Program-made: the position numbers and the translations under genes
Sequence record: PP989839.1
Length of the DNA: 64,000 nt
Direction: 5' to 3' (one strand)
Source of the DNA: Escherichia phage VTCCBPA_322
Shown: in pieces, positions 9,001-36,608 of the stretch
Position numbering within the stretch: position 1 is the first letter of the stretch
How the letters are laid out: each line of letters begins with the position of its first letter
The notes under the pieces: generated by a model
The model's database searches: none
Seen by the model: only the letters and a program-made list of their open reading frames with translations
Told to the model about the DNA's origin: nothing

Positions 9001-9184
9001 TTTGGGCACACTACATATTAACCAAACAGCTGGTACTAATACGTCTGAAATATCTAAGTATGTAGATGGTGCTGGAGTTGTAATGGTTACTCTTTTAGTA
9101 AGAGCAGCTAATAGAAATACTGCTATTGATTCTGTTCCTGTATCTGCAAATCAGTATGCTGGTATATCAAGTATTACATCTTAA
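6095..9184 (+). CDS. tail appendage/tailspike-like protein with conserved N-terminal region and divergent C-terminal module
   Basis: ~1030 aa; tandem ~70-aa internal repeat (WVYSNGSATGGE... / WLYNNGTAVGGE...); codon usage shifts after about nt 6950-7150 (ATA, AGA/AGG, CGG, CTA appear); ATG 6095 has better SD spacing than 6089. Confidence 0.55.
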   Translation: MNAHTPFDANQDWTNPYCQNSSNDPMVDALLGNAYHVVRTVYCNLGNLKLIYDFLNQYGMVLGVQSEAELKALTTKSKYARIYGFSRAGDRQVTDYLYVEGDRTGIIPDNPEATGSWITVATSGSNGGGTPSSEGAYIPWVYSNGSATGGETSINVPDGTVGVPFIIINGDMQYVGRGFEFNVDSLSVTLAQPLEEGDEVVFLLTGVPAVPDNPNVNDWVQINWLYNNGTAVGGEQVIAIPYTFQSIPAVYKNGLRLYKGLTTESYTADPDNQRILLTEPLVTNDRLIVQIGGEAQVLETSDHTLQEVARSANVKDSEVILSTDTTQFLNNKKVIYSISEQRIYGLPALPTNIYIQSVSNGQLTYLPGGITVDLLPIDSAIILREELKEEGGDRLVNGFTSIDSMKLSTILSLGDVVSTGRSKWEIVSSETPIALANGLFAKLLNSLYIDDFAGTGTDKINSLNAYITHGMQASYASSMLLEAYKYSLTPVHVVFTSRVETEVPLLLMRHVHYDQVGSQTYFNRQMPVGLYYAPADLNTSATEPVVFELSGTSYVRKTGVLIGTPDNDITDVNGYITMSDGFLFDLSVACSGGVKIGLNFSMAPGCKGTKTSIGITERGGNLVSAPLLGMYFRWSWGADFRSPKVLAMRQGIHLYKANAGLRITNPYVARVGANADNPELVYSASAWTTEGKNQNTGITCDTVRDFVIDEPVVEWWRQAFAFNDTDIHLRKPHVEDVGGNMIMRHNFVIANSYIDLDNWSQVNYTCLSYGFYFCGQDGSERKVIARGMPPVGGFSNGMVGGTFTNAPLRVENISPAMTDYGSIGNWSAINYLGMDFYREIFVNPTTGNDENSGFVSGRAVASLERAIEIINIIQQRGSFRGNFVINVSGSIALTRVVRAYKDFRINAAGSVITSSSTGHIEMSGIDVILASGTFSGTAALLRHVADNNRVYLIGSAVVNTPAIVTASIGLGTLHINQTAGTNTSEISKYVDGAGVVMVTLLVRAANRNTAIDSVPVSANQYAGISSITS

Positions 9185-9192
9185 ACAGTAAC

Positions 9193-9214
9193 ACCCCTCT
9201 TCGGAGGGGTTTCC
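9193..9214 (+). terminator. hairpin ACCCCTC-TTCG-GAGGGGT followed by TTCC
   Basis: 7-bp GC-rich stem with TTCG tetraloop between the two tail genes; short T-run, so likely a partial terminator or attenuator. Confidence 0.4.
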
Positions 9215-9235
9215 TAGAAAAACGAAGAGGTTATT

Positions 9236-11533
9236 ATGAACGAAATGTTCTCGCAAGGTGGCAAAGGCTCCACTGGTATTCTTACCAATAAGCAAGCTAT
9301 TGCCCGTCATTTTGGTATTAAGCAATCCGAGGTTCTTTACTTCTCTGTTGGTGCTGTATTAGATGGTTATAAAGTCATTTATGACAAGTCCACTCAAAGG
9401 AGTTATTCCTTACCTGCTGGTATTCCATCTGGCACTACTGCTATTAGTCTAAGCACTGCTGCTGTACTTGTACACTCAGCAGGCAGTGAGGACTTAGGTA
9501 CTTTGGCTGCTACTCGTAAGGAATTTATAACTAAGCAGGAGAACTTTAATACAGGCTTTACTATTAGTACCCATAATGAGCAAGTAGTTACTCCTGGTGG
9601 GGTTTACTACTGGGCAGGGTCTTTACCTAAAGTTGTACCTCCTGGTTCCTCTATTGAGGAAACTGGTGGGGTGAATGCTACTGCATGGGTTAATTCATAC
9701 TCCAATGCTGTCTTATGTATTAAGGATTTGCTGACACATCCACAGGGTGGCACAGTTAGTGTGGTTGGTTACATTTCTGGTACGGACTTTGGTGGTGGTG
9801 ATTTTTACTGGGATGCTACTCGTCCACGTAGTAAACATAATGGTATTACAGTATTCAGTCCTACTGTTCCATTTAGTGGTTTATATACGGATATACCGAA
9901 TTTCCATGCTAAGGTTGGAGAGACTGCACCTGATGCCAATGGTTGTTGGGTGCGTAAGGACTGTGGTCGTAAAGTTCTAATGTCATGGGGTGGTGTAGAT
10001 ATTTCAGGCACTCAGCCAATGGATGCCGTAGTAACAAGTATGTGTACTTATGTGCATAATACTCGTCAGATTTTGGATGCTGATGAGAATGCTGTACTTA
10101 AGGCAGGGTTTACTACCGGTACTCAGACCAAAGATAAGCACAATGTGTTTACCCAAGCTTCTGTAATCTTAGAGGGTAAGTATGTCACCATTCGTGGTAA
10201 TGGGGCTAAGATTGATACATATCACCCTGTCCACAGAGAACGTTCTGTATTTGTTCTTCGTAATGGTGGGTATAACATTTCTGGTTTTAAATGGAATGAT
10301 GGGTACACTGACTTTAGTACTTCCCCTACGGATACCCAGCACAAACAAGGTGAATGGTGGATGGGTATTGTTGCAGATGGTGCAGTTACTTTAGTAGCTG
10401 ACCACCATGAAGTAACTGCTTCTCAGGTATTTGTACGAGCAGATGCATTTAATGCTACGGACTGGAATGAAAGAGTAACTGTACGGTATAGTAAGTTTGA
10501 CTACATTACTAACTACTGTTTCCTTAGTCGTAAGCTGAAACATTATGAGTTCAGCTACAATGAGGTTAAACACAATGGCCGTGAGTGGCATACTTATGGG
10601 GAAGCATGTGCTCCAACCACATACACCACACATACTATTATACGTAGTAATAACTTCTTCAATCAGATCGCAGAACAATCCTGTATTACTCCTGGGTCAT
10701 ACCATAAGTCCTGTCTGATTGTTAATAACCATTGTGAACGCTATCGAGGCATTTTCGTTGAGATTGGTTCTTCCAGTAATATCAGCATTCTGAATAACTA
10801 CTCTTATTCCAGTGGTGAAAGGGATAGTTCTCATATCCTACTTGTATCTGGTGGGGTAGATGACGAACCAGAGGGTGGTTTGAATAACTTGTTGATTAAC
10901 GGTAATGTGTTTGAGAGTGGACCGTATACGCTGCGGGAGTACAACACTGGTACTCCAGTTCGCAGAGGCATTACATTCTCTAATAACCACATTATTGATT
11001 GCCCTATGCCTAATATGGGTAATGCTGCTTACCACTCAATGGCATTTACCAATAACTACTGCCAGCCACCAGCAGACTTCCCGTATCTGGTATGGGCAGG
11101 TAAGAATCCAATTATTGAAGGCAATACTTTTGTTGGTGGGGTTATTCGTGCTAGAGATCTGGGTTATACCATTACTAACCCAATCATTCGTAATAACGTA
11201 TTCCGTGATGGTAGTACTGTTCAGACATTCCCTGCATTAATTGATATGACTGACTTTACCCGTTTAGTTGCTGAGGGTAACGATGTAACTAATGCTACCT
11301 TTACTCGTGTAATTGTTGATCCAGCCAACTGTACTTCGGTCGGGTTTAAACGTATTGGGCAGGCAGAGGGTTTTGAATCTAACCCAGCTACCTTGTATGG
11401 TGCTAAACTTACGGATGTAATTAATGGTGATATTGTGATGAACAATAACCCAGGTAATGCTGAAGGTGGTTACGCATGGGTATGCGTAAATTCTGGTTCT
11501 AAACAATTTGGTAAAATTGTCGTAGCTGTGTAA
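9236..11533 (+). CDS. tailspike-like protein with predicted right-handed beta-helix (possible polysaccharide depolymerase)
   Basis: 765 aa; recurring N-N/G-N-x-F/I rungs (IRSNNFFNQ, LINGNVFESG, ITFSNNHIID, IIEGNTFVGG, IRNNVFRDG, AEGNDVTNATF) typical of pectate-lyase-like beta-helices. Confidence 0.55.
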   Translation: MNEMFSQGGKGSTGILTNKQAIARHFGIKQSEVLYFSVGAVLDGYKVIYDKSTQRSYSLPAGIPSGTTAISLSTAAVLVHSAGSEDLGTLAATRKEFITKQENFNTGFTISTHNEQVVTPGGVYYWAGSLPKVVPPGSSIEETGGVNATAWVNSYSNAVLCIKDLLTHPQGGTVSVVGYISGTDFGGGDFYWDATRPRSKHNGITVFSPTVPFSGLYTDIPNFHAKVGETAPDANGCWVRKDCGRKVLMSWGGVDISGTQPMDAVVTSMCTYVHNTRQILDADENAVLKAGFTTGTQTKDKHNVFTQASVILEGKYVTIRGNGAKIDTYHPVHRERSVFVLRNGGYNISGFKWNDGYTDFSTSPTDTQHKQGEWWMGIVADGAVTLVADHHEVTASQVFVRADAFNATDWNERVTVRYSKFDYITNYCFLSRKLKHYEFSYNEVKHNGREWHTYGEACAPTTYTTHTIIRSNNFFNQIAEQSCITPGSYHKSCLIVNNHCERYRGIFVEIGSSSNISILNNYSYSSGERDSSHILLVSGGVDDEPEGGLNNLLINGNVFESGPYTLREYNTGTPVRRGITFSNNHIIDCPMPNMGNAAYHSMAFTNNYCQPPADFPYLVWAGKNPIIEGNTFVGGVIRARDLGYTITNPIIRNNVFRDGSTVQTFPALIDMTDFTRLVAEGNDVTNATFTRVIVDPANCTSVGFKRIGQAEGFESNPATLYGAKLTDVINGDIVMNNNPGNAEGGYAWVCVNSGSKQFGKIVVAV

Positions 11534-11561: not shown

Positions 11562-11562
11562 C

Positions 11563-12188: not shown

Positions 12189-12312
12189 AGTTACCTCGCA
12201 GTCGATACCAGACACTATGTCTGGATGTATTCCATCATACTAAGTATTATCTAAGAGTCATCTTATGATACGACCCTATTGGGGTTCCTAACTTTACAAC
12301 TACGGTAATATT

Positions 12313-20712: not shown

Positions 20713-23367
20713 ATGGGCTTATTCAGTGGGAAGACTAAAGTATACGTAGCATCCTCTGTCTATAACATGGCAGGGGATATACACAAACGTCCTAACTATA
20801 TGAAGACTGTAGTTATCGGTAATATTGTTTCCAATACAGGATTCACTATGGCAGATACTATCTCTGATAGTTATCTGAATGGGCCAGGCATTCGTATGCG
20901 ACTGTTCTCCAGCTGGAGTAAGAACCACTATGATTCAGTAGTTGGTATGGCTGGTTCTTCATTAGGTGTATTGGCTAAGATTGACCCTACTGTTATAGAA
21001 GGGCAAATTACACCACCTGCTGGAGAGTCAGTCTATGTTCAGGCAGCAGAGATAGGCTTTGCTGACTTTGAGCAATGGTGTGACCAGTATCTTTATGAAA
21101 ATGCTCCAAGTCGAATCATGGAACGATTCGACATAGACATTGACGAAGATACTAATGAAATCACTATGACCTCCTTAGATGGAGGCTCTACTATTACATT
21201 CACACCTACTAACTTTGAACCAGGTGCTTTATATCTCTATGCTGATTACTCATTCTATAAGTCCCCTACCACCAATCCACCAGTAGTAGGACCGACTACC
21301 GTTTATGATGATGAGGATGACTTACCATCTACTTTGTTATGGACTACTGTCTCTAGTGATACGACTGCTAACACAACCAATCTTACTAAGACTATACATA
21401 CTCATTCTGTTTACTCTGATGGTAGACCAGATGAGGACAGTACTGTTACTGAGCCAAGTGTGGATAACTGGAACTCTTACATTAAAGTTTACCGTAGAGG
21501 ATTTACTGAGAAACCTGATGATGTGACTGTAGTTGTATCTGACAGGGTAATGACTCATACAAAGTTTGGAGAGATTCAGTCCAGTACTTCTGTAACTACT
21601 AATGTAGTTGATATAGGTGGTGGTGTTACTCGTACAGATACAATCACTACAACCACAGAGACACTGGTTCGTAAGTATTCATCCCAGACTACTCGTACTG
21701 ATACTGAGATGACTGCTGTTGGTACACCTAAGATGCTTATCTATAAGCAGAACTCCGGTAATGTTGTACTGGATTCACTGTTTGAAACTGAGGCTACTGA
21801 TAACCGATTCTACCCATTTATTCCAATCAGGAATGATAAACAATGGGTAGAGAATGACCCAATCTACCCCCACTGTAAGAAAGCTCTTTATAAAGCTACT
21901 GGTGGGAAAATTGATAAAGTAGTCACAGAGCTTAAGAAGAATGATGACATAGGAGATATTCAGTACATCTATGGTTCATTCGGTGTATCCCTTAATACTC
22001 CTGAGGATACTGCTAAAGAATACATCTACCGTTTCTTTCAGATGGCTACTGAAGCATTTCCACCTGACCCAACTTATCCAACACTGGAGGCAGTAATTGC
22101 AGGTTATCAGGCAGCAAATGATGCAGTTGATGCATACGTGGAATGGTGGAACAGGCAGGAAGGTCAGATTGTTGGAACACCTCCTCCATTGCCAGAATAC
22201 CCAGTCATACCTAAGCGAGAGTTTAGGGTACATAGTAATAAGCAGTACAAGTACGACATGACTATTGGCTGGAACTATGTATCTGAAACTACCCATTCAG
22301 GACAAGCATGGTCTGGTGCTAAGCAAGGACAACTTCGAGCCAGATATGCTGGAGATATAACGCTTACTCGTAAGAACATACGTACTGCTAGTAACTCTGG
22401 TTCAGTTAAGAAGTTGGAAGTTACTACTACATTTTACTCTATGCAGGAGTATGAGTTACTTTGGCAGGATGGTAATGACACTTACCGTAAACTTAGGGTA
22501 TTAGGTCTAAACCACAATAACAGGGTATATAAGAACAAGTCAGTGCACATTGATGTTGCCGAAGCAATGGGAGATGCAGAGGAGAGCGGATTCATTATTC
22601 CACTGCACACTAATATCTACCGTTCAATGTCACTGGTTCGTAGTACACAGCTGTCTACTGCCTGTTCCTACTTAGTAATGAACTCATATAAGAAAGTTAA
22701 GCAGAAGTGGTACACAACATCTGCCTTTAAGATTGTGGTTGTTGTAGTTGCTGTCGTTGTATCTGTATTTACTATGGGTGCTGGTGGTGCAGGTATTCTT
22801 GGGGCATACGGTGCAGTTGGTGCATCCCTGGGTTTTGTTGGATTAGCTGCTGTAATAGTTGGTGCTGTAGCAAACGCAATTGCTGCAATGATTCTGGTAT
22901 CTATTATTACTAAAGTATCTACTTCACTGTTCGGTGATAAGCTAGGTTTTATCATTGCTGCTATTGCCTCAATGGTAGCCATGAACGTTGGTACTGCTTT
23001 GTCTACTGGTACATCCTTATCTTCCCTAGCCGGTGAAATGATGAATGCCCAAAACATCATGCAGCTTACCAGTTCAGTTGGCAATGGTATTAGTCAGTAT
23101 ATTAATGCATCCACGGCTGCTACTATTCAGAAAGCAGAGAATATAATGCAGCAGTACAATACTGATATGATGGCAATCAATAAGCAGTATGAAGAAATGT
23201 TCGGTACTGCTGGACAGGGTGTGATTGACCCCATGCAATTCGTGTCAATGGAGTCGTTGGATTCGTTCCTATCACGTACTCTCATGAATGGTTCAGATAT
23301 AGCTGACTTGTCCTTAGACATGGTTGGCAACTACTCTGATATGACTCTTAATACTGACCTTATTTAA
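20713..23367 (+). CDS. large virion protein with C-terminal multi-pass hydrophobic region (ejection/channel protein candidate)
   Basis: 884 aa; residues ~680-790 contain several Gly/Ala/Val-rich helices (VVVVVAVVVSVFTMGAGGAGILGAYGAVGASLGFVGLAAVIVGAV...). Confidence 0.45.
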   Translation: MGLFSGKTKVYVASSVYNMAGDIHKRPNYMKTVVIGNIVSNTGFTMADTISDSYLNGPGIRMRLFSSWSKNHYDSVVGMAGSSLGVLAKIDPTVIEGQITPPAGESVYVQAAEIGFADFEQWCDQYLYENAPSRIMERFDIDIDEDTNEITMTSLDGGSTITFTPTNFEPGALYLYADYSFYKSPTTNPPVVGPTTVYDDEDDLPSTLLWTTVSSDTTANTTNLTKTIHTHSVYSDGRPDEDSTVTEPSVDNWNSYIKVYRRGFTEKPDDVTVVVSDRVMTHTKFGEIQSSTSVTTNVVDIGGGVTRTDTITTTTETLVRKYSSQTTRTDTEMTAVGTPKMLIYKQNSGNVVLDSLFETEATDNRFYPFIPIRNDKQWVENDPIYPHCKKALYKATGGKIDKVVTELKKNDDIGDIQYIYGSFGVSLNTPEDTAKEYIYRFFQMATEAFPPDPTYPTLEAVIAGYQAANDAVDAYVEWWNRQEGQIVGTPPPLPEYPVIPKREFRVHSNKQYKYDMTIGWNYVSETTHSGQAWSGAKQGQLRARYAGDITLTRKNIRTASNSGSVKKLEVTTTFYSMQEYELLWQDGNDTYRKLRVLGLNHNNRVYKNKSVHIDVAEAMGDAEESGFIIPLHTNIYRSMSLVRSTQLSTACSYLVMNSYKKVKQKWYTTSAFKIVVVVVAVVVSVFTMGAGGAGILGAYGAVGASLGFVGLAAVIVGAVANAIAAMILVSIITKVSTSLFGDKLGFIIAAIASMVAMNVGTALSTGTSLSSLAGEMMNAQNIMQLTSSVGNGISQYINASTAATIQKAENIMQQYNTDMMAINKQYEEMFGTAGQGVIDPMQFVSMESLDSFLSRTLMNGSDIADLSLDMVGNYSDMTLNTDLI

Positions 23368-25857: not shown

Positions 25858-25895
25858 TTCCTATATACGATATAAGTTTGAACAGGAAACATGCT

Positions 25896-28800
25896 ATGTC
25901 AACATTTGACCGTCTGGCAGGTTTCGCAGACAGCATCACTAATGCCAAGCAAGTCGATGTCTCTACTGCAACCTCTCAGAAGCAAGCTGCACAAGGGCAA
26001 AGCCCTTTCCAATTAACCCCAGAGAATGCTTACAATCTCCAAACTGGTCGTGTAGGTAATCTTGGAATCGGTGCATTCGAACCAGGTTCACTTCAGGCAG
26101 ATTTCACTCAAGCCTCTCCATTAGAAATTCTTAATAAATACGGTAATGAGCAAGGTCTACAGATTCTTAATAGCCGAGCTAATGCTGCTGATGTTGTACG
26201 TCAGGACTTATCTAAGCAACGTACTAACGCAGAAGCATTTGGTGATACTCTTTCTGGTGTTGGTCTTGGTGTTGCTAATACCCTTGGGGGCATTGCTGCT
26301 CTTGGCACAGGTCTGGTCAATGATAATGCCGGGGCATCCATTGCTTCCGGGATGGATTGGTTGAATGAAGGTGTACACAATCTACAGTCTGATGCACTGA
26401 ATGCTACCCGTAAGGTTGTTCAGAATCAGAACCTGATTTCTGCACAAAAGAACCAGAAACTTTATGAAGAAGACATTAAGAATGGGGAGAGCAGTTTGGT
26501 TGCCTCCTTGTCTCGCATTGGTCGTGACGCTTTTGATTCCGTTGCTAATACACTTGATAATGGTATGGCTGCCACCGATGGACTGAGTGAAGGTGTTGGT
26601 TCCCTCTTTACTGGTGGTCCACTTATCCGTGGTGTATCTGCACTTGGTAAAGTAATGGTAGGTGGTGATAAAGCTATTAAAGGTATTACCTTAGCTGCTG
26701 AGTTAGGTTCACGCCCTGCACAGGTTGCATTGTCTGCTGGTCGTGTTGCTGCACCTGCTATAGCAATTGGTGGTATGGAAGCTGGTGGTGCATACCAACA
26801 GACTGCTTCTGAAATCATGAAGATGTCCCATCAAGAATTAGCAAGTAAGTCTCCTGTTTATCAACAACATATTGCTGATGGTTTATCCCCTGATGAAGCT
26901 CGTCGTCAGACTGCATCTGAAACAGGTATCGTTGCTGCTGGCTTAACTGCTCCGGTTGCTGCTGCTACTGGTCCACTGGTATCCAAATTTGAACTCAACC
27001 CCCTTAAAGTAGGTTCACTGGCTGGTGCTGGCTCTAACATGCTACGTGAGACTGTAGAAGAAGGTATCCAGTCCGGTACTAGTCAGTTTGCACAGAACAA
27101 AGCAATTCAGGGTAATGTAGATGCTAAGCGTGATTTGCTTAAAGGTGTCGGTGAACAAGCAGGTCTTGGTGCACTTTATGGCTTCGGTAGTGCTGGTGTT
27201 GCTCAGGCTCCAGGTGCAACTGTTAAAGCTGTTGGTGCTTCTGCTGGGCCTGCTTTACGTACTACTCTGGCTGGTGCTTCTCTGGTTGGTAGTGCATTAG
27301 CAAAAGCTGCCTCTCCTATTACTAACATCCTGGTTCAACGTGGGGAAGAAGTTGCTAAGCGTAATGAACAAGCATCTCCTGTATCAGACGCTACAGTTAA
27401 CGCTGCTGCACAAGAAGCTACTGCTCAGGCAGAACAAGCACAAGCAACTGTACAGGAAGCAGTAGATGCAATGGATATTTCTCCTGAAGAGAAAGCTGCT
27501 GCTACTCAGTATGCTGCTGACTTAACTCAGGCAATGAAGTTTGACCCAGTAGAGTTAGAGCAAGCTAATCCAGCAATCCGTGAAGCTGTTTCTGGTTCCA
27601 CTAACCGTGTAGAAGCTATTCAGAAGATGGCTGACCTGGTTAATACTGCTGAAGACCCTAACGTTCAAATGGAAGCTGCAATCCAGATGTATGACAACAT
27701 CATGTCTATGGATAGCTTCATTAATCGTGACCCGGGTGCTTTGGCTAATCTGGAACAGGGTTCTCCTGCTGCTAATATTGTTGACCAGTTCTCCGGTCTG
27801 ATGGCTAACGTACAGAATACTCCAAAGGTACTTCGTGCATTCCGTGCCATCCATTCTATGATTCAGGAACAGGCTGAAGCAGGTAAGTTAAAAGCTACTG
27901 AAGAAGCTAATCAAGCCCAAGCAAACAACATTGCTATGGCTGCTGATATGTCTCCAGAAGTATTGGATGCAGATTCAGTGAACATGGTTCTGAAACATGC
28001 AAGTGAAGGTAAGATTACACTGGGTAATCGTCAGCGTGCTGCCTTGCAATCTGCTGCTGCTTTATTACAAGGAGCACGGGAATTTGACGCTAAAGCAGAA
28101 GAACTGGGCTTACGTCCTCAGGACATTGTTAGTAAACAGATTAAAACCGACGAATCTCGTTCTAATGAAGGTCAGTACTCTGCGTTGCAACATGCTAAAC
28201 GCATTCGTTCTGCGTACAACTCTGGTAACTTCGATTTGGCTTCCGCTTATCTCGACGACTTTATGAAGTTCGCCCAGCACATGCAGAATAAGGTCGGAGC
28301 GTTGAATGAGCATCTGATTTCTGGGAATGCGGATAAGAATAAGTCTGTCCATTATCAGGCTCTTACTCCCTCCCGTGAATGGGTACGTAGTCGTACTGGC
28401 CTCGGTGTCAATCCGTATGATACCAAGTCGGTTAAGTTTGCCCAGCAAGTAGGACTGGAGGCCAAAACCGTAGCTGATATTGCTAATGCACTTGCTACGG
28501 CTTACCCGGAGCTTAATGTTTCTCATGTGAAGGTTACCCCATTAGATTCACGTCTGGACAAGCCTGCTGCCCAGGTGGTTAAAGAGTTCCGTCAGGGCAA
28601 TCTTGACGCTGCTCAATCCCAACAGACCAATGAACCAGTGAATCAGGTTGATAAATCTCCTGCACCTGTGCAAGAGGCCACTACTACTGTACAGCCTAAA
28701 GCTAAACTAGTGGTAGAAAATAAGACTGTTCCTGTTAAGGAGACTAGTTCAAAAGCAGAAGAAGTCTCTACTACCGAATCCGAAAGGGATGCTTATGTGA

Positions 28801-31800
28801 AAGAAAATACTATTTCACAGGACATCCTCAATAAGAGCGGTGATCGTAGAGAGAGTCCTTGGCTCTTTGCTGATGGTACTGTTGTTGGTTCTAACGGCGA
28901 TCACATTAGCCTGTCCGATGTATTTGGTCACGATGGCTATCGTGATATGTCTTTGGATACTGGTGCTGTACGTTCTACTTTCTATAAAGGCAGTGAGCAA
29001 CCATTCGTATCTTTGCAACTTTTTGATAATCAGAAGCTAACTACTGAACAATTCAATACTGTTCAATCATTCGTAGAAGCAAACAATGCACTGATTCAGA
29101 TTGGTGTAGATACGTCTGGGCGTAACACCAATAACGTTGAGAAGATAGAAGTATCACTGGCCCAACTGAAAGCAGACTATACCGTTGGTGGTAAACCCCT
29201 GTCTGAGATGGAAACAGTGTTCCCTGTCTATAACAATGACAAGACACCGAACCAGTTCCTGAAAGCATTTACCCTGCCGGAAGAACCTAAGTCTCGCACC
29301 ATTGGTTCTGAATCCCCTTTGACTGATGTTAAGCAAGCACTGTCTTCTGCTGCTCGCTTTGAAGCATTCACTCAAAAAGAAAATAACGCTCTCACAAGTG
29401 ATGTGATTAAGCGTTATCAGGACTTAATGGACTTTGGTGAAACTCTGAAGACTACTTTGTCTGACCGTCTGACTAAGTTTCTTGCTAATAAGAATGTTGG
29501 TAAACGTTTTGCAGAAGGTACTGAGGCTAACCGTTGGGTAGGTGGTAAGTTACTTAACATCGTAGAGAAAGATGGGGATACCTTTAAGTTCAATGACCAG
29601 TTGTTAGAGACTGCTGTACTTGCTGGTCTGCAATGGCGACTTACTGCTACACAAAATGCTGCTGTTAAAGATATGAAAGACGTAGCTGCTATTACTGGAG
29701 TAGAAGCATCCTTGTTACCTGAAGGTATCCTGGCTGAATTTGAGAATGCTCAGACTCTGGTTGAAGCTACTAACTCACTGGCTCAAAAGATTGAATCTTA
29801 CTGGGGTCTGAATCGTAATCCTAATGCACCTCTGGGTTATACCAAAGGTATCCCAATGGCAATGGCTACAGAGATTCTGTCTTCTTTCATTGAGATGGGT
29901 GAAGTTAAAGAATCTATGCTGGATGTGTCTGAGTTTGACCCAGCTTCTAATAAGACTGTTGGTCTGTATACTATTGAGAAACTGGATGATAATGATGCCA
30001 TTAACAAATTCCCTACTGCTATTGAGGAAGCTGTCCTCGTAGAACCAGAAGAGAAAATGTACTTTGGTGATGATATTCCTTCCGTGGCTCAAACACAGTT
30101 ACGTAATCCTGCTGTTAAGAATACCCCAGAGCAGAAAGCTGCTCTTAAAGCAGAACAGGCTACCGAGTTCCGTGTACACATGCCTATGGTTAACTTCTAT
30201 GAAGCATTAGGTCGTGACAACATTCTGGAACTGATGGGTGCTGGTACTCTTAATCCTGAACTGCTGAACGTGAATACTGCTAAATCATTGGAAGGTAAAA
30301 ACCTGTCCGTGTCCATGGCATATGATTCCTTGTTTGGTGTAATCAATCAATTACAGGAACAGGAGAATGGTCTGGATACGCCTATTCACTATGGTTACAA
30401 CATGACCCGTGTAGGTCGTATGCAGATGCTTGGTAAGAACAACCCACAATCCAGCAAGCTGGTTCGTGAAGCAATTCTGCCAACCTTCTCTACTATTGAC
30501 TTAAGTAATGAAAATAGCCAAACGTTCTCTGACTTCCAGTTAGGTCTGGCTCAGGCATTGGGCATCAAGGTTCATAATATGTCCCGTGAAGCTATGTCTG
30601 AAAAACTGACCAAAGCTCTGGAAGGTAATTTGAAACCTGCTGTTGATATGATGGTTGAGTTTGATAAGTCCGGTCACTTACCTGCTGATGCAGTAGATAT
30701 TCTGAAGACATCTCTGGGTGGTGATAAATCATTCGTAGCTCTTATGGCTCTTATGGAATATGCCCGTTACCTTAACAGTACTGACCGTGCTAACTTTAAT
30801 ACCCCACTGTACGTTGAAGCCGATGGTGTAACCAACGGGCCAATCAATGCAATGGTATTAATGACCGGTGGTAAGTTCACTTCGGATTGGATTAAGAATA
30901 CTGCTAAAGGTGGTTTGTTCTTCGGTAAAGCTGGTAAGACTATGAACGAACACCGTTCACAGGATGACAGTGTTGACTTGTATGAAGCATCTACTAATGG
31001 TCTGCAACAAGCACTAAATGAGTTACGTACTACTTACCGTAATAATGTTCCGGTCATGAACCAGATGAATCATCTTCAGAAGTTAATGGACCTGTTCATT
31101 AAAGACTTTAACCTGAACGAAGACGGTACTTTGGACCTGAAACGTGGTATCGCTAAAAACCCACTGACTATTACCATCTATGGTTCTGGTGCTCGTGGTA
31201 TTGCTGGCAAGATGGTTAGTGCAATTACTGACACCATCTATGAACGCTTCAGTGATGTTCTGCAAGCTCGTGCTGCTGACCCTAGCATTTCCCCAGCTAT
31301 GGCAATGTTTGGTAAGGAGGCTGCGTCTGAGGCTAATGCTCAGGCTATGCTGGATACTTTCCTTACATCTATGGAAGCACTGACTGGTAATGTTCCAGTT
31401 ATGCGTAAAGGTCAACTGTCTATTCAACAGGTAGAAGGTGCTCTGACTGGTAAGTTAGACCCACAGAAATTTACTGTATCTGGTAATGCCCTGAAGAACT
31501 TACAAGAGAACATGCTTCACCTGTTCGTTGAACCAATGCGTACTGGTATCCGTAATACTGTTGGTGAAGGTCTTATGCATTCTACTGAGAACTTGCAGAA
31601 GGCTACCCAGATTCAGTCTTTGGTTCTGCAAGACATGTTCCAACAAGCAGTACAGGCTAAGCTGGCAGAAAAAGAAAAAGACCCAACATGGAAGAAGGGT
31701 GATTTCTTAACACAGAAAGAACTTAATGAAATCCAGGAATCATTATCTCCACTGGCTCCAATGATTGAGACTGGTTCACAGACTTTCTACATTGCTGGTA

Positions 31801-34800
31801 GTGAGAATACTGACGTTGCTAACCAAGTTCTGGCTACCAACTTAGATGATCGTATGCGTGTGCCAATGAGCATCTATGCTCCTTCACAGGCAGGCGTTGC
31901 AGGTATTCCATTTATGACCATTGGTACTGGCGATGGCATGATGATGCAGACCCTTTCTACTATGAAAGGTGCTCCGAAGAATACCCTGAAAATCTTTGAT
32001 GGTATGAACATTGGTATCGACAACATCACTGATGCAAGTCGTAAAGCTAACGAGGCTGTATACACTTCCTGGCAGGGTAACCCTATCAAGAATGTCTACG
32101 ACTCCTTCTCTAAGTTCATGAAGAATGTAGACTTCAGCAAACTGTCTGATGAAACCAAACAGGCTATCGCTAAATCTGCTCTGGAATATGACCAGCGTGA
32201 AGGTGCTACCGATGACCTGTTACGTGTTGGTGCTGAACAGATTGAACGTAATCTGCGCAACATTGCTCTGGGTGTGGATATTCGCCACAAAGTAATGAAC
32301 CAGGTACAGACTACTGTTGACCAGATGGCTGCTGTAGGTGCTCCTTATGTGAACAACGGTAAAATCTCTCTGGAAGGTCTGACTGTAGACCAGCAAGTAG
32401 CTAAGCTGAACGAACTGTTTGATGCTGAGTTAAACAAGCGTCGTGATGCAGTACGTGCTGCTAAAGCAGAACCAGTGAAAGAAGTACCAGCAATGGAACA
32501 GGTTGGTCGTGTACTGAAGTCTGGTGTACGTCTGCTGTCTAATACTGCTATCTCTAAGCTGGCTAAAGAGATGTCTCCGGAACAGCAAGCGGTACTGAAA
32601 GAAGTACAGAAATCCCTTGCTGCTAAAGACTACAAAGTTGTTTATGGTACTCCTGCTCAATTAGATGCTTATGCTATTGAGAAGAATATTACTCGCCCAG
32701 CACCAGAAGATATTGAAGCTGCTGAAGCAGGTAATGCATACGGCTGGACTAACTTTGATGATAAGACTATCTACTTAGTTACCCCTTCCTTGGAGACTCT
32801 GGTTCATGAATTGGTACATGCTTCTACTTTCGAATCTGTACTGGCTCATTATGAAGGTACTCCAAATGAAGCAGTCCAAAATATTGAAGACTTAATGAAT
32901 CAGTTCCGTACTCTGGATGTTAAGGATGAATCTCCGGCAGTACGCGAAGCATATGCAGATGCTCTTAATACCATTAATGGTCATTTGTCTAATGGCTTCA
33001 TTGAACCAGCAATGGCTAAAGCTGCTGCACTTAACGAGTACATGGCATGGGGTTTAACTAACCGTGAACTAATTAGCAAGCAGAAGAAAACTACTGCACT
33101 GAAGACTATGGTTCAGGCTGTGTATGAAGCAATCAAGCGTCTGGTATTCGGACGTAAGAAAGCTCCCGCTAATGCAGATGATATGTTCTCTGGTTTACTA
33201 TTTAACTCTGCTGTAGTTATGCGAGGACAAGCTCCTACTGCTGCTGTAGCCAAGGATACTACTCTGTTCCATAACAAAGCATACGGTGACAATACTCGTC
33301 TGGAAGAGCTAGGGAAAACCTTCGATAAACTGATTACAGACTACATTGGTTCAGAACCAGTACAACAAGTAATTCGTAAGGGTAAATTCTCTGATGCAGT
33401 AGTGAATGCAACTAAAGTAACCCGTGATGTTCAGGCTCATGGCTTCACTATGAATATGCAGGAACAGCGTCTATTCACTAACATCGTTGCTGCTCTGGCT
33501 ACTGAAGCTGCCATTAGTCCTGCTGCCCTGGCTCGTGCACAGGAATACTATACGCATGTTACTAAGAACCTGACCGTTGAATCGTTCATGGCTGACCCGG
33601 ATAGTACTAACCCTGCTGACCGTTACTATGCTCAACAGAAGTTCGATACCATTATGGGTGCTAACAATATTGAGTTTGATGCACAGGGCCGTTCTTCCTT
33701 ACTGCCTACCTTTGTTGGTCTGGCAATGGTAAGTGAAGAGGTACGTAAAGTACTGGCAGACATTCCTGTTATGAAAGCAGATAAGCAATCCGGTAATACA
33801 GTTGATGCAATGCTGACTAACATTGGTACTGCTGCAATGGCTAGTCTGAATGCTCGTGTAGCGGGTGATACTAAGGCTACCAATGTACAGGAAGGTATGG
33901 ATGCACTGGCTCAGACAATCATGCAGACGAGTCTCAATGCACAGTCCTTCTATGATTCCGTTGCTACTCCTAGTGGTAATGCTATTGACCGTGCTAACCA
34001 GTATCTGGTGGATTCTATTGATGCATTGTCTACCCGTGCTTTAGAAGGTGCTCGTGAAGTTGCAGCTAATACCAAGAACCCGTTGGTTAAAGGTGCTGCT
34101 CATGCTGCACAACTAATAGCTGCTATTGCTACAGAGAAGAATGGTGAAATCGTAGCTGAAGGCGTTATGGCTGCAATGAACCAGGGTAAAGTGTGGCAAC
34201 CTTTCCATGACCTGGTTAATGACTTAACAGGCCGTACTAAGAGCAATGCTTCTGTATACGATTTGATTAAGGCAGTACGTGCACAGGTACAAGCTGACCG
34301 TCAACAGTTCCGTGAACATTTGCCTACCACTATCGCATCTAAGTTCAGCCGTAAGCTGACTAATGATGAATGGAAAGCAATGCATACTGGTATGGGTAAA
34401 ACTGACTTAGCTGTTTTACGTGACACTATGTCTCTGGCTGAAATTCGTGACTTGCTGACTGACCAAAAGATTGTTGACCGTGAAGTGAATAAGCTGGAAG
34501 CAGACTTACAGAAACAAGCTGGTCGTAACTGGCCTCTGATTAGCCGTAAATCTAAGCAACTAGCTCAGTACATGATTAACGGTACAGTTGGTAATAACCT
34601 GCTGCGTAATGCTACAGCAATCTCTCGTATGCTGGGTGAACGTCAGGCTGCACGTTCTACTGTAGATGTAGCTCAACTGGATAAACTGATTACTCTGTAT
34701 GCACTGGAAGCAATGAGTAAGACTGACCGTGAGATGTTATCTTCACTGGCTCAATCAGAAGTTGATGGAATTGATTTTGCTACTTCTTACCTGGTTGGTC

Positions 34801-36608
34801 AGCGTAAAGATGAAATGGCTAAAGCCAAGTCTGACATGCGTGCAACCCTGAACCAGTACAAAGGTTATATCCCAAGTGAGACTAAGCAAGGTGTTAACCT
34901 GATTGTTGCTGAAGACAGTCAATTTGCTGATTTGATTGAGAAGTCTTATGTACGTCTGGGTACTTATCAAGGTAGTTCTGCTAATCGTGGTTCAGCACGT
35001 AGCTACTACTTCGCACCGGTACAGGCACAGGCTCCATTCTCACAGGGTATTCTACAGAACGTTCGTAATACTGCTGGTGGTGTAGACCTTGGTACAGGAT
35101 TTACGATGGGAACCATGGTGGCTGGTCGTATTACTGACAAGCCTTCTGTAGACCGTATCACTAAAGCACTGGCTCGTGGTGAACGAGGTAATGAGCCACT
35201 GATGCCTGTATATGATGACAAAGGTAATGTAGTTGCTTATGAACAATCTATTGACCCTAACATGCTGAAGCACATTGAGGGTGAGAACCATCTTGCTCGT
35301 GCAATCGGTGTATGGCGTGGTCGTCAGGTGGAAGAAGCTAAGGCTCAGCGTTTCAACGATATGCTAATTGAGAATCTGCATAGCATGTATGAGAACGACA
35401 TTAAGATGTCTGCCTCTAATAAGTCCCAGTACGTTAACCTTCTTGGTTCTAAGCTGGACCCAGTAACTGCTGATGCCCTTAAGCTGATGAACAGTGAAAC
35501 ACGTCAGAAAGCAGAAAGCCTGTTTGGCGAAGGTGAACTGTGGGTTCGTCGTGACATGCTGAATGATGCACTAGGCTATCGTGCAGCTTCCGTTGGTGAT
35601 GCCTGGTCTGGTAATTCTCGTTGGTCCCCGGAAACACTGGATACCTTTAAGAAAGCTATGCTTGGTGTGTTCGGCAACCGTGCCTACAAGTATGTAATGG
35701 GTGGTGAGAACCTGGTTCAGAACTTAGTTAAAGAAGCTAAGACTCTGATTGTAGTTAAATCAGTGGTTGTACCTGCTGTTAACTTCCTGGCTAACCTTTA
35801 CCAGATGGTTGGTCGTGGTGTACCCGTTAAGAACATTGCTAAAAGCATTCCACAGAAGACTGCTGAGATTAACCAGTACCTGAAATCTCGTCTGCGTCAG
35901 GTAGACGCAGAAGCAGAATTACGTGCAGCCACTAACCCGAACCAGATTCGTAAACTTAAGGCTGAGATTCAGTCTATTACTGACAGCCATAAGCGTATGA
36001 GTATCTGGCCTCTGTTAGAAGCTGGTGAGTTCTCTTCAATTGCAGATGCTGGTATTGGGCGTGATGATATCCTGATTACTGAGGGTAAACTCCATGAATA
36101 CATGGATAAACTGGCTGATAAGTTACCTAAGTCTGTACGCAACGCTGGACGTTATGCACTTATCACCAAAGATACTGCTCTCTTCCAGGGTATCCAGAAG
36201 ACGGTTGAGTACTCTGACTTTATCGCTAAAGCAATCATCTATGATGATTTGACTCAGCGTAAAGGTAAGACTCGTGAAGAAGCACTAGGACGTGTAACGG
36301 AGGAGTTCATTAACTATGACCGTTTGCCTGGTCGCTTCCGTGGGTATATGGAAAGTGTTGGTTTAATGTGGTTCTACAACTTTAAGATTCGTTCTGCGAA
36401 AATTGCAGTATCCATGATTCGTAACAACCCGGTACATGCAGCTATGGCTATGTTGGCTCCAACTCCTACCATGTTTGGTAACGTTGGTTTACCTATTCAG
36501 GACAACATCTTCAGTATTGCTGCACAAGGTAATCTTGGTTACTCCTGGGGCTTCGGTCAGGGCTTACGTGCCCATAACCTTAACCCTTGGCTCAACCTCA
36601 CTAACTAA
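25896..36608 (+). CDS. virion-encapsidated RNA polymerase (N4 vRNAP-like giant protein)
   Basis: One uninterrupted ~3,570-codon frame; first in-frame ATG 25896 after AGGAA SD (track start 25878 is TTG); a ~3,500-aa virion RNAP is the N4-like hallmark; RNAP motifs not verified. Confidence 0.8.
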   Translation: MSTFDRLAGFADSITNAKQVDVSTATSQKQAAQGQSPFQLTPENAYNLQTGRVGNLGIGAFEPGSLQADFTQASPLEILNKYGNEQGLQILNSRANAADVVRQDLSKQRTNAEAFGDTLSGVGLGVANTLGGIAALGTGLVNDNAGASIASGMDWLNEGVHNLQSDALNATRKVVQNQNLISAQKNQKLYEEDIKNGESSLVASLSRIGRDAFDSVANTLDNGMAATDGLSEGVGSLFTGGPLIRGVSALGKVMVGGDKAIKGITLAAELGSRPAQVALSAGRVAAPAIAIGGMEAGGAYQQTASEIMKMSHQELASKSPVYQQHIADGLSPDEARRQTASETGIVAAGLTAPVAAATGPLVSKFELNPLKVGSLAGAGSNMLRETVEEGIQSGTSQFAQNKAIQGNVDAKRDLLKGVGEQAGLGALYGFGSAGVAQAPGATVKAVGASAGPALRTTLAGASLVGSALAKAASPITNILVQRGEEVAKRNEQASPVSDATVNAAAQEATAQAEQAQATVQEAVDAMDISPEEKAAATQYAADLTQAMKFDPVELEQANPAIREAVSGSTNRVEAIQKMADLVNTAEDPNVQMEAAIQMYDNIMSMDSFINRDPGALANLEQGSPAANIVDQFSGLMANVQNTPKVLRAFRAIHSMIQEQAEAGKLKATEEANQAQANNIAMAADMSPEVLDADSVNMVLKHASEGKITLGNRQRAALQSAAALLQGAREFDAKAEELGLRPQDIVSKQIKTDESRSNEGQYSALQHAKRIRSAYNSGNFDLASAYLDDFMKFAQHMQNKVGALNEHLISGNADKNKSVHYQALTPSREWVRSRTGLGVNPYDTKSVKFAQQVGLEAKTVADIANALATAYPELNVSHVKVTPLDSRLDKPAAQVVKEFRQGNLDAAQSQQTNEPVNQVDKSPAPVQEATTTVQPKAKLVVENKTVPVKETSSKAEEVSTTESERDAYVKENTISQDILNKSGDRRESPWLFADGTVVGSNGDHISLSDVFGHDGYRDMSLDTGAVRSTFYKGSEQPFVSLQLFDNQKLTTEQFNTVQSFVEANNALIQIGVDTSGRNTNNVEKIEVSLAQLKADYTVGGKPLSEMETVFPVYNNDKTPNQFLKAFTLPEEPKSRTIGSESPLTDVKQALSSAARFEAFTQKENNALTSDVIKRYQDLMDFGETLKTTLSDRLTKFLANKNVGKRFAEGTEANRWVGGKLLNIVEKDGDTFKFNDQLLETAVLAGLQWRLTATQNAAVKDMKDVAAITGVEASLLPEGILAEFENAQTLVEATNSLAQKIESYWGLNRNPNAPLGYTKGIPMAMATEILSSFIEMGEVKESMLDVSEFDPASNKTVGLYTIEKLDDNDAINKFPTAIEEAVLVEPEEKMYFGDDIPSVAQTQLRNPAVKNTPEQKAALKAEQATEFRVHMPMVNFYEALGRDNILELMGAGTLNPELLNVNTAKSLEGKNLSVSMAYDSLFGVINQLQEQENGLDTPIHYGYNMTRVGRMQMLGKNNPQSSKLVREAILPTFSTIDLSNENSQTFSDFQLGLAQALGIKVHNMSREAMSEKLTKALEGNLKPAVDMMVEFDKSGHLPADAVDILKTSLGGDKSFVALMALMEYARYLNSTDRANFNTPLYVEADGVTNGPINAMVLMTGGKFTSDWIKNTAKGGLFFGKAGKTMNEHRSQDDSVDLYEASTNGLQQALNELRTTYRNNVPVMNQMNHLQKLMDLFIKDFNLNEDGTLDLKRGIAKNPLTITIYGSGARGIAGKMVSAITDTIYERFSDVLQARAADPSISPAMAMFGKEAASEANAQAMLDTFLTSMEALTGNVPVMRKGQLSIQQVEGALTGKLDPQKFTVSGNALKNLQENMLHLFVEPMRTGIRNTVGEGLMHSTENLQKATQIQSLVLQDMFQQAVQAKLAEKEKDPTWKKGDFLTQKELNEIQESLSPLAPMIETGSQTFYIAGSENTDVANQVLATNLDDRMRVPMSIYAPSQAGVAGIPFMTIGTGDGMMMQTLSTMKGAPKNTLKIFDGMNIGIDNITDASRKANEAVYTSWQGNPIKNVYDSFSKFMKNVDFSKLSDETKQAIAKSALEYDQREGATDDLLRVGAEQIERNLRNIALGVDIRHKVMNQVQTTVDQMAAVGAPYVNNGKISLEGLTVDQQVAKLNELFDAELNKRRDAVRAAKAEPVKEVPAMEQVGRVLKSGVRLLSNTAISKLAKEMSPEQQAVLKEVQKSLAAKDYKVVYGTPAQLDAYAIEKNITRPAPEDIEAAEAGNAYGWTNFDDKTIYLVTPSLETLVHELVHASTFESVLAHYEGTPNEAVQNIEDLMNQFRTLDVKDESPAVREAYADALNTINGHLSNGFIEPAMAKAAALNEYMAWGLTNRELISKQKKTTALKTMVQAVYEAIKRLVFGRKKAPANADDMFSGLLFNSAVVMRGQAPTAAVAKDTTLFHNKAYGDNTRLEELGKTFDKLITDYIGSEPVQQVIRKGKFSDAVVNATKVTRDVQAHGFTMNMQEQRLFTNIVAALATEAAISPAALARAQEYYTHVTKNLTVESFMADPDSTNPADRYYAQQKFDTIMGANNIEFDAQGRSSLLPTFVGLAMVSEEVRKVLADIPVMKADKQSGNTVDAMLTNIGTAAMASLNARVAGDTKATNVQEGMDALAQTIMQTSLNAQSFYDSVATPSGNAIDRANQYLVDSIDALSTRALEGAREVAANTKNPLVKGAAHAAQLIAAIATEKNGEIVAEGVMAAMNQGKVWQPFHDLVNDLTGRTKSNASVYDLIKAVRAQVQADRQQFREHLPTTIASKFSRKLTNDEWKAMHTGMGKTDLAVLRDTMSLAEIRDLLTDQKIVDREVNKLEADLQKQAGRNWPLISRKSKQLAQYMINGTVGNNLLRNATAISRMLGERQAARSTVDVAQLDKLITLYALEAMSKTDREMLSSLAQSEVDGIDFATSYLVGQRKDEMAKAKSDMRATLNQYKGYIPSETKQGVNLIVAEDSQFADLIEKSYVRLGTYQGSSANRGSARSYYFAPVQAQAPFSQGILQNVRNTAGGVDLGTGFTMGTMVAGRITDKPSVDRITKALARGERGNEPLMPVYDDKGNVVAYEQSIDPNMLKHIEGENHLARAIGVWRGRQVEEAKAQRFNDMLIENLHSMYENDIKMSASNKSQYVNLLGSKLDPVTADALKLMNSETRQKAESLFGEGELWVRRDMLNDALGYRAASVGDAWSGNSRWSPETLDTFKKAMLGVFGNRAYKYVMGGENLVQNLVKEAKTLIVVKSVVVPAVNFLANLYQMVGRGVPVKNIAKSIPQKTAEINQYLKSRLRQVDAEAELRAATNPNQIRKLKAEIQSITDSHKRMSIWPLLEAGEFSSIADAGIGRDDILITEGKLHEYMDKLADKLPKSVRNAGRYALITKDTALFQGIQKTVEYSDFIAKAIIYDDLTQRKGKTREEALGRVTEEFINYDRLPGRFRGYMESVGLMWFYNFKIRSAKIAVSMIRNNPVHAAMAMLAPTPTMFGNVGLPIQDNIFSIAAQGNLGYSWGFGQGLRAHNLNPWLNLTN

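What the first reader, a model, noticed from the sequence alone, without database searches (positions are those of the whole stretch)
20713..23367. Large virion protein with a C-terminal glycine-zipper-like multi-helix hydrophobic block
An N4-like phage must deliver its giant vRNAP into the cell. This 884-aa structural-operon protein ends in ~110 residues of consecutive Gly/Ala/Val-rich helices, as expected for a protein that inserts into the envelope during ejection.
Basis: inference. Interest (0 to 1): 0.4.

Follow-up and report, generated by a model that had tools for sequence, protein, structure and literature searches.

The report
N4-type phage tail plug protein
This gene encodes the G7C-like coliphage version of phage N4 gp53, the single-copy protein that plugs the tail tube; by homology its greasy near-C-terminal helices are the cork inside the tube, not a demonstrated membrane anchor, so the finding is real but already explained.

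Summary
The ORF (20713-23367, +, 884 aa) and its hydrophobic block are real. The block is aa 673-775 and holds only 4 charged residues. It is the only strongly membrane-like stretch among the structural proteins checked in the window. It is not the C-terminal end: a 109-aa acidic tail follows. Its glycines do not show glycine-zipper (i+4) spacing beyond chance.

Cryo-EM papers from 2026 show that N4 gp53 and DEV gp74 are the monomeric tail plug. N4 residues 29-56 and 670-716 (here 29-56 and 674-720) form a "hydrophobic knot" that corks the 12-mer tail tube. The last ~160 residues lie unresolved in the lumen. The published model assigns envelope insertion to gp52, gp51 and the vRNAP N-terminus.

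One open point remains: this G7C-like phage lacks the N4 sheath gp64/gp65 that holds the plug in N4. Verdict: already known, low interest.

The parts
20713..23367 (+). Complete ORF, 884 aa: orthologue of phage N4 gp53 / DEV gp74 tail plug (PHROG 2220).
20797..20880 (+). Aa 29-56: N-terminal helices that in N4 gp53 (same numbering) join the hydrophobic knot.
   Evidence: Residue mapping to N4 29-56, 71% identical. AF2 predicts helices 29-40 and 46-55. Role taken from PMC13434306.
21343..21714 (+). Aa 211-334: four long (24-31 residue) Ser/Thr-rich beta-strands, the 'beta-feather' protrusion described for N4 gp53 and absent from DEV gp74.
   Evidence: AF2 secondary structure E211-234, E241-269, E272-302, E305-334 with pLDDT ~85-92. 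The N4 alignment is nearly gap-free over this region (one 2-residue offset upstream). Feather described in PMC13434306. Weak aerolysin-like structural hits.
22690..22731 (+). Aa 660-673: conserved basic/aromatic collar (KKVKQKWYTTSAFK, net +5) immediately before the hydrophobic block.
   Evidence: K665, W666 and F672 invariant, K663 and Y667 near-invariant in 47 sequences. Charge. The motif recurs as WYQTGIFK in B2 and as (W)YQTGIFK / WYQRGIFK in JA-1 and DSS3phi2.
22732..22872 (+). Aa 674-720: first half of the hydrophobic block. [quoted passage not shown]
   Evidence: Mapping (69% identical to N4). Among the lowest column entropy in the protein, with conserved glycines G694, G697, G703, G707 and G717. 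Role from PMC13434306.
22873..23037 (+). Aa 721-775: second half of the hydrophobic block (invariant N721; segments ~722-741 and 744-765). From aa 729 onward it corresponds to N4 residues not resolved by cryo-EM and placed in the tail lumen.
   Evidence: Hydropathy. 75% identical to N4. The N4 model ends at residue 724, which is query 728. AF2 pLDDT below 50.
23038..23364 (+). Aa 776-884: polar, acidic (net -9), Met/Gln/Asn-rich helical C-terminal tail. It is unresolved in N4 and proposed there to act as a 'ripcord' for the luminal gp52 copies.
   Evidence: Composition and charge. E847, R855, T856 and G860 invariant. A tail of 111-157 aa is present in every homologue examined. Ripcord proposal in PMC13434306.
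19869..20711 (+). Upstream neighbour, 280 aa: N4 gp54-like tail-tube protein, the 12-mer that the plug seals.
   Evidence: tblastn with N4 gp54: 66.8% identity, E=2e-133. phrog_2050 virion structural protein. gp54 identified as tail tube in PMC13434306.
23381..23824 (+). Downstream neighbour, 147 aa: N4 gp52-like ejection protein, which in N4 lies in the tail lumen and forms the outer-membrane complex.
   Evidence: tblastn with N4 gp52: 59% identity, E=3e-48. Role from PMC13434306.
23837..25801 (+). 654 aa: N4 gp51-like ejection protein (periplasmic tunnel in N4).
   Evidence: tblastn with N4 gp51: 49.9% identity, E=2e-180. phrog_6126.
25878..36608 (+). 3576-aa virion RNA polymerase (N4 gp50-like).
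   Evidence: tblastn with N4 gp50: 58-70% identity over the full length.
6089..11533 (+). Two G7C-type tailspike genes (1031 aa and 765 aa). They occupy the position where N4 carries gp66, gp65 and gp64. No gp64/gp65 sheath, the plug anchor in N4, is encoded here.
   Evidence: No tblastn hit for N4 gp64 or gp65, and only the first 72 aa of gp66 match. PDB matches: 4QNL (G7C gp63.1) N-terminus, 9D80 (a 1086-aa 'tail fiber protein', probably the Moo19 tailspike) and 4OJ5.

Best explanation
The gene encodes the tail plug of a G7C-like (Gamaleyavirus) N4-family podophage. One copy caps the distal end of the dodecameric tail tube built from the upstream gene product.

Anatomy, with the basis for each part:
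- Aa ~7-665 fold into a globular core plus a long beta-sheet 'feather'. By homology with N4 this part sits outside the tube.
- Aa 29-56 and the first half of the hydrophobic block (aa 674-720) pack into a knot of short helices that is pushed into the tube mouth as a greasy cork. This is inferred by homology and shown for N4.
- The rest (aa 729-884: two more hydrophobic segments and an acidic tail) runs up the lumen beside copies of the downstream gp52-like ejection protein.

Proposed sequence of events, following the published model for N4 and DEV: receptor binding by the tail's receptor-binding proteins releases the plug sideways and pulls the C-terminal segment out of the lumen. This frees gp52, gp51, the vRNAP and the DNA to leave.

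Shown here: orthology, synteny, fold of the core, conservation of the block. Inferred from N4 and DEV structures: single copy, cork position, gating. Unknown: what holds the plug in this sheath-less phage.
For: - Full-length alignment to the solved N4 gp53 chain (9YFT_FA, E=0, 1060 bits). tblastn gives 54.7% identity.
- Gene order is exactly that of N4: portal, gp58, gp57, MCP, gp55, gp54, gp53, gp52, gp51, gp50.
- N4 knot residues 29-56 and 670-716 map to query 29-56 and 674-720 at 71% and 69% identity.
- Aa 601-720 is the most conserved internal stretch across 47 diverse homologues, with invariant or near-invariant Gly, Ala and Asn positions. That pattern is typical of tight helix packing rather than a generic lipid-facing helix.
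- The block is low-confidence in a monomer AF2 run (pLDDT 33-60), as expected if it folds only inside the tube.
- Published cryo-EM and LC-MS identify N4 gp53 as the plug with a hydrophobic knot (PMC13434306) and DEV gp74 as the plug (PMC12892993). Orthologues were found in LIT1 and Moo19 virions.
Against: - Nothing here directly shows the protein at the tail tip of this particular phage.
- The N4 partner that holds the plug (gp65 D9-D10, with gp64) has no homologue in the window, so the gating trigger cannot be copied from N4.
- In Moo19, a sheath-less relative whose orthologue is 70% identical, only very weak unassigned density was seen at the distal tube (PMC11654681).
- The second half of the block and the tail (aa 729-884) are unresolved in every structure, so their role is conjecture.
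- The uniformly hydrophobic, low-moment character of the block is also what a membrane segment looks like.
Confidence: 0.85

Rival explanations
1. One reading: an ejected or pilot protein whose hydrophobic helices insert into the host outer or inner membrane and form part of the conduit for the vRNAP and DNA.
For: - The block is uniformly hydrophobic with a near-zero hydrophobic moment.
- KD19 reaches 2.59. None of the other 13 structural-module proteins checked reaches 1.6, except one marginal vRNAP segment. The gp52-like and gp51-like proteins have maxima of only 1.14 and 0.75.
- Phobius predicted four TM helices in the KP8 orthologue (PMC6950046).
Against: - The modelled half of the block is inside the tail tube as a cork in N4, and about 80% of the protein is an external globular body.
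- The plug is still on empty particles. The authors propose lateral displacement with tethering, not ejection.
- Outer-membrane pore activity was shown for DEV gp73, the counterpart of gp52 by LIT1 numbering, N4 homology and size (PMC11445570). PMC13434306 pairs the DEV numbers the other way round.
- A single copy cannot form a pore wide enough for DNA.
- A crude translocon-scale sum puts only two 19-mers near the insertion threshold (-0.01 and -0.71 kcal/mol), and the Gly-rich middle is unfavourable (scale values recalled from Hessa et al. 2005).
- The glycine-zipper periodicity is not above chance.
Confidence: 0.05
2. A dual-state protein: cork in the virion, and after unplugging the freed C-terminal segment (aa ~721-884) is the first polypeptide to meet the outer membrane. 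It would then insert as a pilot or anchor that nucleates the gp52 outer-membrane complex.
For: - Aa 729-884 are unresolved and lie in the lumen next to gp52.
- They contain two further hydrophobic segments and conserved polar residues E847, R855, T856 and G860, which suggest a specific partner.
- The authors themselves call this segment a possible 'ripcord'.
- The architecture of block plus ~110-125-aa tail is invariant across subfamilies.
Against: - There are no data on membrane association of gp53.
- The third hydrophobic segment is weak on the crude translocon-scale sum (+1.95).
- The tail is acidic and polar.
- The plug re-seals empty particles in vitro, which suggests the segment can return to the tube.
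Confidence: 0.08
3. The block is a host inner-membrane targeting or assembly device: newly made gp53 is parked in the cytoplasmic membrane, and the tail tip is assembled there.
For: Only the membrane-like hydropathy of the block and the basic N-terminal flank (net +5), which fits the positive-inside rule.
Against: - No report of membrane-associated tail assembly in N4-like phages was met in the papers read.
- The block lies 670 residues from the N-terminus, which is unfavourable for co-translational targeting.
- The solved structure gives it a different, sufficient role.
Confidence: 0.02

Closest known systems
Phage N4 gp53 tail plug (PDB 9YFT; Nat Commun 2026, PMC13434306)
   Same: - Full-length orthologue: 885 against 884 aa, ~55% identity, E=0.
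- Same gene position between tail tube gp54 and ejection protein gp52.
- Same MGLFS N-terminus, and the sequence aligns with N4 across the beta-feather region.
- Knot segments 29-56 and 670-716 are conserved at ~70% identity.
- Same further hydrophobic stretch and C-terminal tail.
   Different: - N4 holds the plug through domains D9-D10 of one sheath subunit, gp65 (with gp64). This phage encodes neither and carries G7C-type branched tailspikes instead.
- The external core regions are only 40-42% identical to N4.
Pseudomonas phage DEV gp74 tail plug (PDB 9ZE4 chain M; mBio 2026, PMC12892993)
   Same: - Sequence match over the collar, hydrophobic block and tail (query 600-871, E=6e-17).
[quoted passage not shown]
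   Different: - DEV gp74 is 740 aa and lacks the beta-feather.
- It is held by the gp56-gp55-gp54 receptor-binding fibre.
- Only 12-13% identity in the structural alignments.
Gamaleyavirus orthologues and their relatives Moo19 and KP8: G7C (90.9%), PGN829.1 (99.3%), Moo19 gp70 (70%), KP8 ORF71 (57.5%)
   Same: The same gene. Moo19 gp70 was detected in virions by mass spectrometry, and KP8 ORF71 had already been noted to have four predicted TM helices.
   Different: All are still annotated 'hypothetical protein' or 'membrane protein'. No tail-tip structure exists for this sheath-less group, and Moo19 showed only weak unassigned plug density.
T7-type ejection proteins (gp14/gp15/gp16) and their N4 counterparts gp52/gp51/gp50
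   Same: Encoded in the same structural block and acting at the same step of infection. The C-terminal part of the plug shares the tail lumen with gp52 in N4.
   Different: Those proteins are packaged internally, are multi-copy, leave the virion and build the trans-envelope channel. gp53 is single-copy, mostly external, and remains with the tail in the N4 data. There is no sequence or fold similarity.

Membership tests
Schitoviridae tail plug (N4 gp53 / DEV gp74; PHROG 2220) | Full-length sequence homology to N4 gp53. | tested here: met
   9YFT_FA E=0, 1060 bits, 1-883 aligned to 1-883. phrog_2220 E=0, 1-883. tblastn 54.7% identity.
Schitoviridae tail plug (N4 gp53 / DEV gp74; PHROG 2220) | [quoted passage not shown] | tested here: met
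   Order is gp54-like 19869-20711, this ORF, gp52-like 23381-23824, gp51-like 23837-25801, vRNAP 25878-36608. The same order holds in N4, B2, JA-1 and DSS3phi2.
Schitoviridae tail plug (N4 gp53 / DEV gp74; PHROG 2220) | Fold of the globular core shared with a solved plug. | tested here: met
   [not shown]
Schitoviridae tail plug (N4 gp53 / DEV gp74; PHROG 2220) | Hydrophobic-knot segments: N-terminal helices 29-56 plus a hydrophobic stretch after a WY..FK collar, followed by a ~110-160-aa tail. | tested here: met
   Mapping to N4 29-56 and 670-716 at 71% and 69% identity. Present in 118 of 118 homologues and in three other lineages. Conserved Gly, Ala and Asn positions.
Schitoviridae tail plug (N4 gp53 / DEV gp74; PHROG 2220) | Single copy sealing the distal end of the 12-mer tail tube in the virion. 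| not testable with these tools
   Shown by cryo-EM for N4 and DEV. For this phage it needs virion cryo-EM or proteomics.
N4-type tail-gating complex (gp54 12 : gp65/gp64 6 : gp53 1) | A gp65 sheath/receptor-binding subunit whose C-terminal domains clamp the plug, with gp64 as partner. | tested here: not met
   tblastn with N4 gp64 and gp65 finds nothing in the window at E<=1e-3. The syntenic interval holds two G7C-type tailspike genes. The plug is a family member, but the N4-type gating complex as a whole is not present.
Glycine-zipper membrane motif ((G/A/S)xxxGxxxG repeats) | Small residues, especially Gly, recurring at i+4 more often than composition predicts. | tested here: not met
   In aa 673-775: GxxxG 2 against 2.0 in 5000 shuffles. 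[GAS]xxxGxxx[GAS] 5 against 2.4 (p=0.09). Small-xxx-small 22 against 17.9 (p=0.08). GxxG 6 against 2.0 (p=0.005). One GxxxG (G703/G707) is invariant.
Integral membrane protein / membrane-inserting ejection protein | Hydrophobic segments long and hydrophobic enough to span a bilayer. | tested here: inconclusive
   KD19 >= 1.6 across aa 665-765. <H> 0.6-0.8 with muH ~0.1. A crude translocon-scale sum is only ~0 for two 19-mers and +1.95 for a third. No TMHMM or DeepTMHMM was available. Phobius predicted 4 TM helices in the KP8 orthologue.
Integral membrane protein / membrane-inserting ejection protein | Demonstrated association with host membranes after ejection. | not testable with these tools
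   No such data for gp53 were found in the papers read. The N4 structure places the modelled half of the block in the tail tube.

The most novel reading that the evidence does not exclude
In sheath-less G7C-like phages the plug is retained and released in a way not yet described, with no gp65 or DEV-type fibre to hold it. On release, the unresolved C-terminal 156 residues (two further membrane-like helices plus a conserved acidic tail) would leave the lumen first and insert into the outer membrane as a pilot that seeds the gp52 channel. The cork would then be a two-state (tube to membrane) segment.
Probability: 0.1. Interest if true: 0.45.

Novelty: already known. Interest (0 to 1): 0.15.

Why it matters
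It matters little as a discovery. The family, its structure and the role of the hydrophobic stretch were published in 2026 for N4 and DEV, and the predicted TM helices had been noted in 2019 for KP8.

The practical value is annotation. Every listed Enquatrovirinae orthologue of 60% identity or more in the phage collection is labelled 'hypothetical protein' or carries no usable annotation. These can be re-labelled 'tail plug (N4 gp53-like)'.

One real gap remains. G7C-like phages lack the protein that clamps the plug in N4, so how receptor binding by their branched tailspikes opens the tail is unknown. That question is relevant to host-range engineering of these therapeutic-candidate coliphages.

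Tried and rejected
- Pfam gave no family for this protein or its four neighbours.
- PHROGs gave only an 'unknown function' family, phrog_2220.
- The glycine-zipper idea was tested by shuffling and rejected.
- The monomer AF2 run did not fold the hydrophobic block or the tail (pLDDT 33-60). It therefore gives no independent view of the knot or the unresolved C-terminus, and no multimer prediction was available.
- 9YFT is absent from the fold libraries, so structural comparison with N4 gp53 itself was not possible. Only the sequence match is available.
- A crude translocon-scale calculation used scale values recalled from memory. It is indicative only.
- The antisense ORF 22668..23084 opposite the block was considered and dismissed as a by-product of GCN/GTN/GGN codon richness. 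No further test was made.
Full report
**Observation**

The window carries an ATG-to-stop ORF at 20713..23367 on the + strand, encoding 884 aa. It begins one base after the stop of the upstream 280-aa gene.

A hydropathy scan shows one strongly hydrophobic region.
- Nineteen-residue Kyte-Doolittle means stay at or above 1.6 from about aa 665 to 765, with a peak of 2.59.
- There is a 60-residue run without any charged residue (aa 674-733).
- Aa 673-775 hold four charged residues in all. Over aa 671-780 the composition is dominated by Ala 21, Val 18, Gly 15 and Ile 10.
- None of the other 13 structural-module proteins I checked in the window reaches 1.6, except one marginal segment in the vRNAP.

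So the block is real and unusual.
- The block is not the end of the protein. A 109-residue polar, acidic tail (net charge -9) follows it.
- The glycines are not spaced like a glycine zipper. GxxxG occurs twice against 2.0 expected in 5000 shuffles of the block. The spacing that is enriched is GxxG, 6 against 2.0, p=0.005.

**What it is**

Pfam has nothing for it. PHROGs places it full-length in phrog_2220, 'unknown function'.

A tblastn search of the phage collection shows the window is a G7C-like coliphage of the genus Gamaleyavirus:

| Phage | Amino-acid identity |
|---|---|
| Escherichia phage PGN829.1 | 99.3% |
| G7C | 90.9% |
| Shigella phage Moo19 gp70 | 70% |
| Klebsiella phage KP8 | 57.5% |

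More distant records label the gene 'N4 gp53-like protein'.

A sequence search of the PDB is decisive. The protein aligns from residue 1 to 883 with chain FA of entry 9YFT, 'Gp53' of phage N4 (E=0, 1060 bits). It also aligns over residues 600-871 with chain M of 9ZE4, 'N4 gp53-like protein' (E=6e-17), which is the plug chain of the phage DEV tail-gating complex.

I fetched the N4 genome and ran its late proteins against the window. The order portal, gp58, gp57, major capsid protein, gp55, gp54, gp53, gp52, gp51, vRNAP is reproduced exactly. gp53 matches 20713-23361 at 54.7% identity.

**Structure**

I built an AlphaFold2 model from a 47-sequence alignment.
- It is confident for aa 7-665, with pLDDT about 80-90.
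- It includes four beta-strands of 24-31 residues at aa 211-334.
- It is unconfident for aa 666-884, with pLDDT 33-60.

**What is known about the family**

PMC13434306 (Nat Commun 2026) reports cryo-EM of the N4 tail.
- The twelve-subunit gp54 tube is closed by one copy of gp53, giving a 12:6:1 mismatch with the sheath.
- gp53 has a globular core and a 'feather-shaped' beta-sheet, both outside the tube.
- Residues 29-56 and 670-716 form a 'hydrophobic knot' of six short helices that corks the tube base.
- The model stops at residue 724. [quoted passage not shown]
- gp53 was found by LC-MS in virions.
- The plug is clamped by domains D9-D10 of one gp65 sheath subunit.
- The plug is present on both full and empty particles. 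The authors propose lateral displacement on receptor binding, with the C-terminus acting as a 'ripcord' for the luminal gp52.
- Envelope penetration is assigned to gp52 (outer membrane), gp51 (periplasmic tunnel) and the vRNAP N-terminal domain.

PMC12892993 (mBio 2026) shows the same role for DEV gp74. There the plug is held by the gp56-gp55-gp54 receptor-binding fibre.

Earlier proteomics found the orthologue in LIT1 virions (PMC3715699) and in Moo19 virions (PMC11654681). The KP8 paper (PMC6950046) had already remarked on four predicted TM helices in the orthologue.

**Mapping onto this protein**

A global alignment places the N4 features as follows:

| N4 gp53 | This protein | Identity | Note |
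|---|---|---|---|
| 29-56 | 29-56 | 71% | N-terminal knot helices |
| 670-716 | 674-720 | 69% | modelled part of the knot |
| 724 (end of model) | 728 | - | aa 729-884 (156 residues) have never been resolved |

- The first half, aa 674-720, corresponds to the cork.
- The second half, from about aa 721 to 775, has two further hydrophobic segments. Together with the acidic tail it corresponds to the luminal segment.

Conservation supports a packing role.
- Across 47 homologues down to 32% identity, aa 601-720 is the most conserved internal stretch. Its column entropy is 1.17-1.22, against 1.8-2.3 for the globular regions between aa 29 and 600. Only the first 28 residues are more conserved (0.87).
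- G703, G707 and N721 are invariant. G694, G697, A713, G717, A720, A722, A724 and A725 are near-invariant.
- The C-terminal tail also keeps invariant polar residues (E847, R855, T856, G860), which suggests a specific protein partner.

The architecture of collar, hydrophobic block and ~110-160-residue tail is present in all 118 full-length homologues retrieved. It is also present in Shigella phage B2 gp33, Vibrio phage JA-1 gp47 and roseophage DSS3phi2 gp63.

**Mechanism**

The best-supported reading (confidence 0.85) is that this is the tail plug. The hydrophobic block is the stopper and luminal tether of that plug. It keeps the ejection proteins and DNA in until receptor binding releases it.

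Orthology, synteny, core fold and conservation are shown here. Copy number, position and gating are inferred from N4 and DEV.

- In its favour: the block is uniformly hydrophobic with a near-zero hydrophobic moment.
- Against it: a crude translocon-scale sum puts only two 19-mers at the insertion threshold.

I give about 0.05 to pure membrane insertion and about 0.08 to a dual cork-then-pilot role.

**A difference from N4**

N4 gp64 and gp65 have no homologue in the window. The syntenic interval holds two G7C-type tailspike genes.
- 6089-9184 encodes 1031 aa.
- 9236-11533 encodes 765 aa.
- Their PDB matches are 9D80, 4QNL and 4OJ5.

The clamp that couples receptor binding to unplugging in N4 is therefore absent, and the DEV fibre is a different system. 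In Moo19, only weak unassigned density was seen at the tube end. How this group holds and releases its plug is the one open question left by this analysis.

**Verdict**

The feature is an orthologue of a structurally characterised protein whose hydrophobic stretch has a published explanation. Novelty: already known. Interest: 0.15.

Noticed in passing
window 6089-11533 and 11534-12360 (interval between the gp67-like gene and the lysis genes): The N4 sheath/receptor-binding genes gp64 and gp65 are absent. Two G7C-type tailspike genes take their place. The 1031-aa product has an N-terminus like PDB 9D80 (a 1086-aa 'tail fiber protein', probably the Moo19 tailspike) and a C-terminus like CBA120 TSP 4OJ5. 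The 765-aa product has an N-terminus (aa 1-159) like G7C gp63.1, 4QNL. The plug therefore has no N4-type clamp in this phage.
   Followed up: partly
L002 1721-4048 (Shigella phage B2 gp33): B2 gp33 (775 aa) is a gp53-family plug homologue. It gives tblastn E=9e-22 to query aa 340-673, has the MGLFS N-terminus, and has WYQTGIFK plus a hydrophobic block at aa 555-649 followed by a 126-aa tail. It lies directly after the tail-tube gene gp34. Table 1 of the Moo19/B2 paper (PMC11654681) lists 'N/A' for a gp53-like protein in B2.
   Followed up: partly
[not shown]
   Followed up: no
window 35736-35801 (vRNAP aa 3287-3308): This is the only other segment among the structural-module proteins checked with a 19-residue Kyte-Doolittle mean >= 1.6 (peak 1.76). 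It lies in the C-terminal domain of the vRNAP. The gp52-like and gp51-like ejection proteins have maxima of only 1.14 and 0.75.
   Followed up: no
window 22668-23084, minus strand: A 138-aa antisense ORF lies exactly opposite the hydrophobic block. It is most likely an artefact of the GCN/GTN/GGN codon richness of that stretch and not a gene.
   Followed up: no
phage collection hits H41-H100: Every listed Enquatrovirinae orthologue of 60% identity or more (60 records: Gamaleyavirus, Moo19, Jgk1 and two Klebsiella phages) is labelled 'hypothetical protein' or carries no usable annotation. More distant records carry misleading labels such as 'baseplate wedge protein', 'putative tail protein' or 'membrane protein'. 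All could be re-annotated as tail plug (N4 gp53-like).
   Followed up: no
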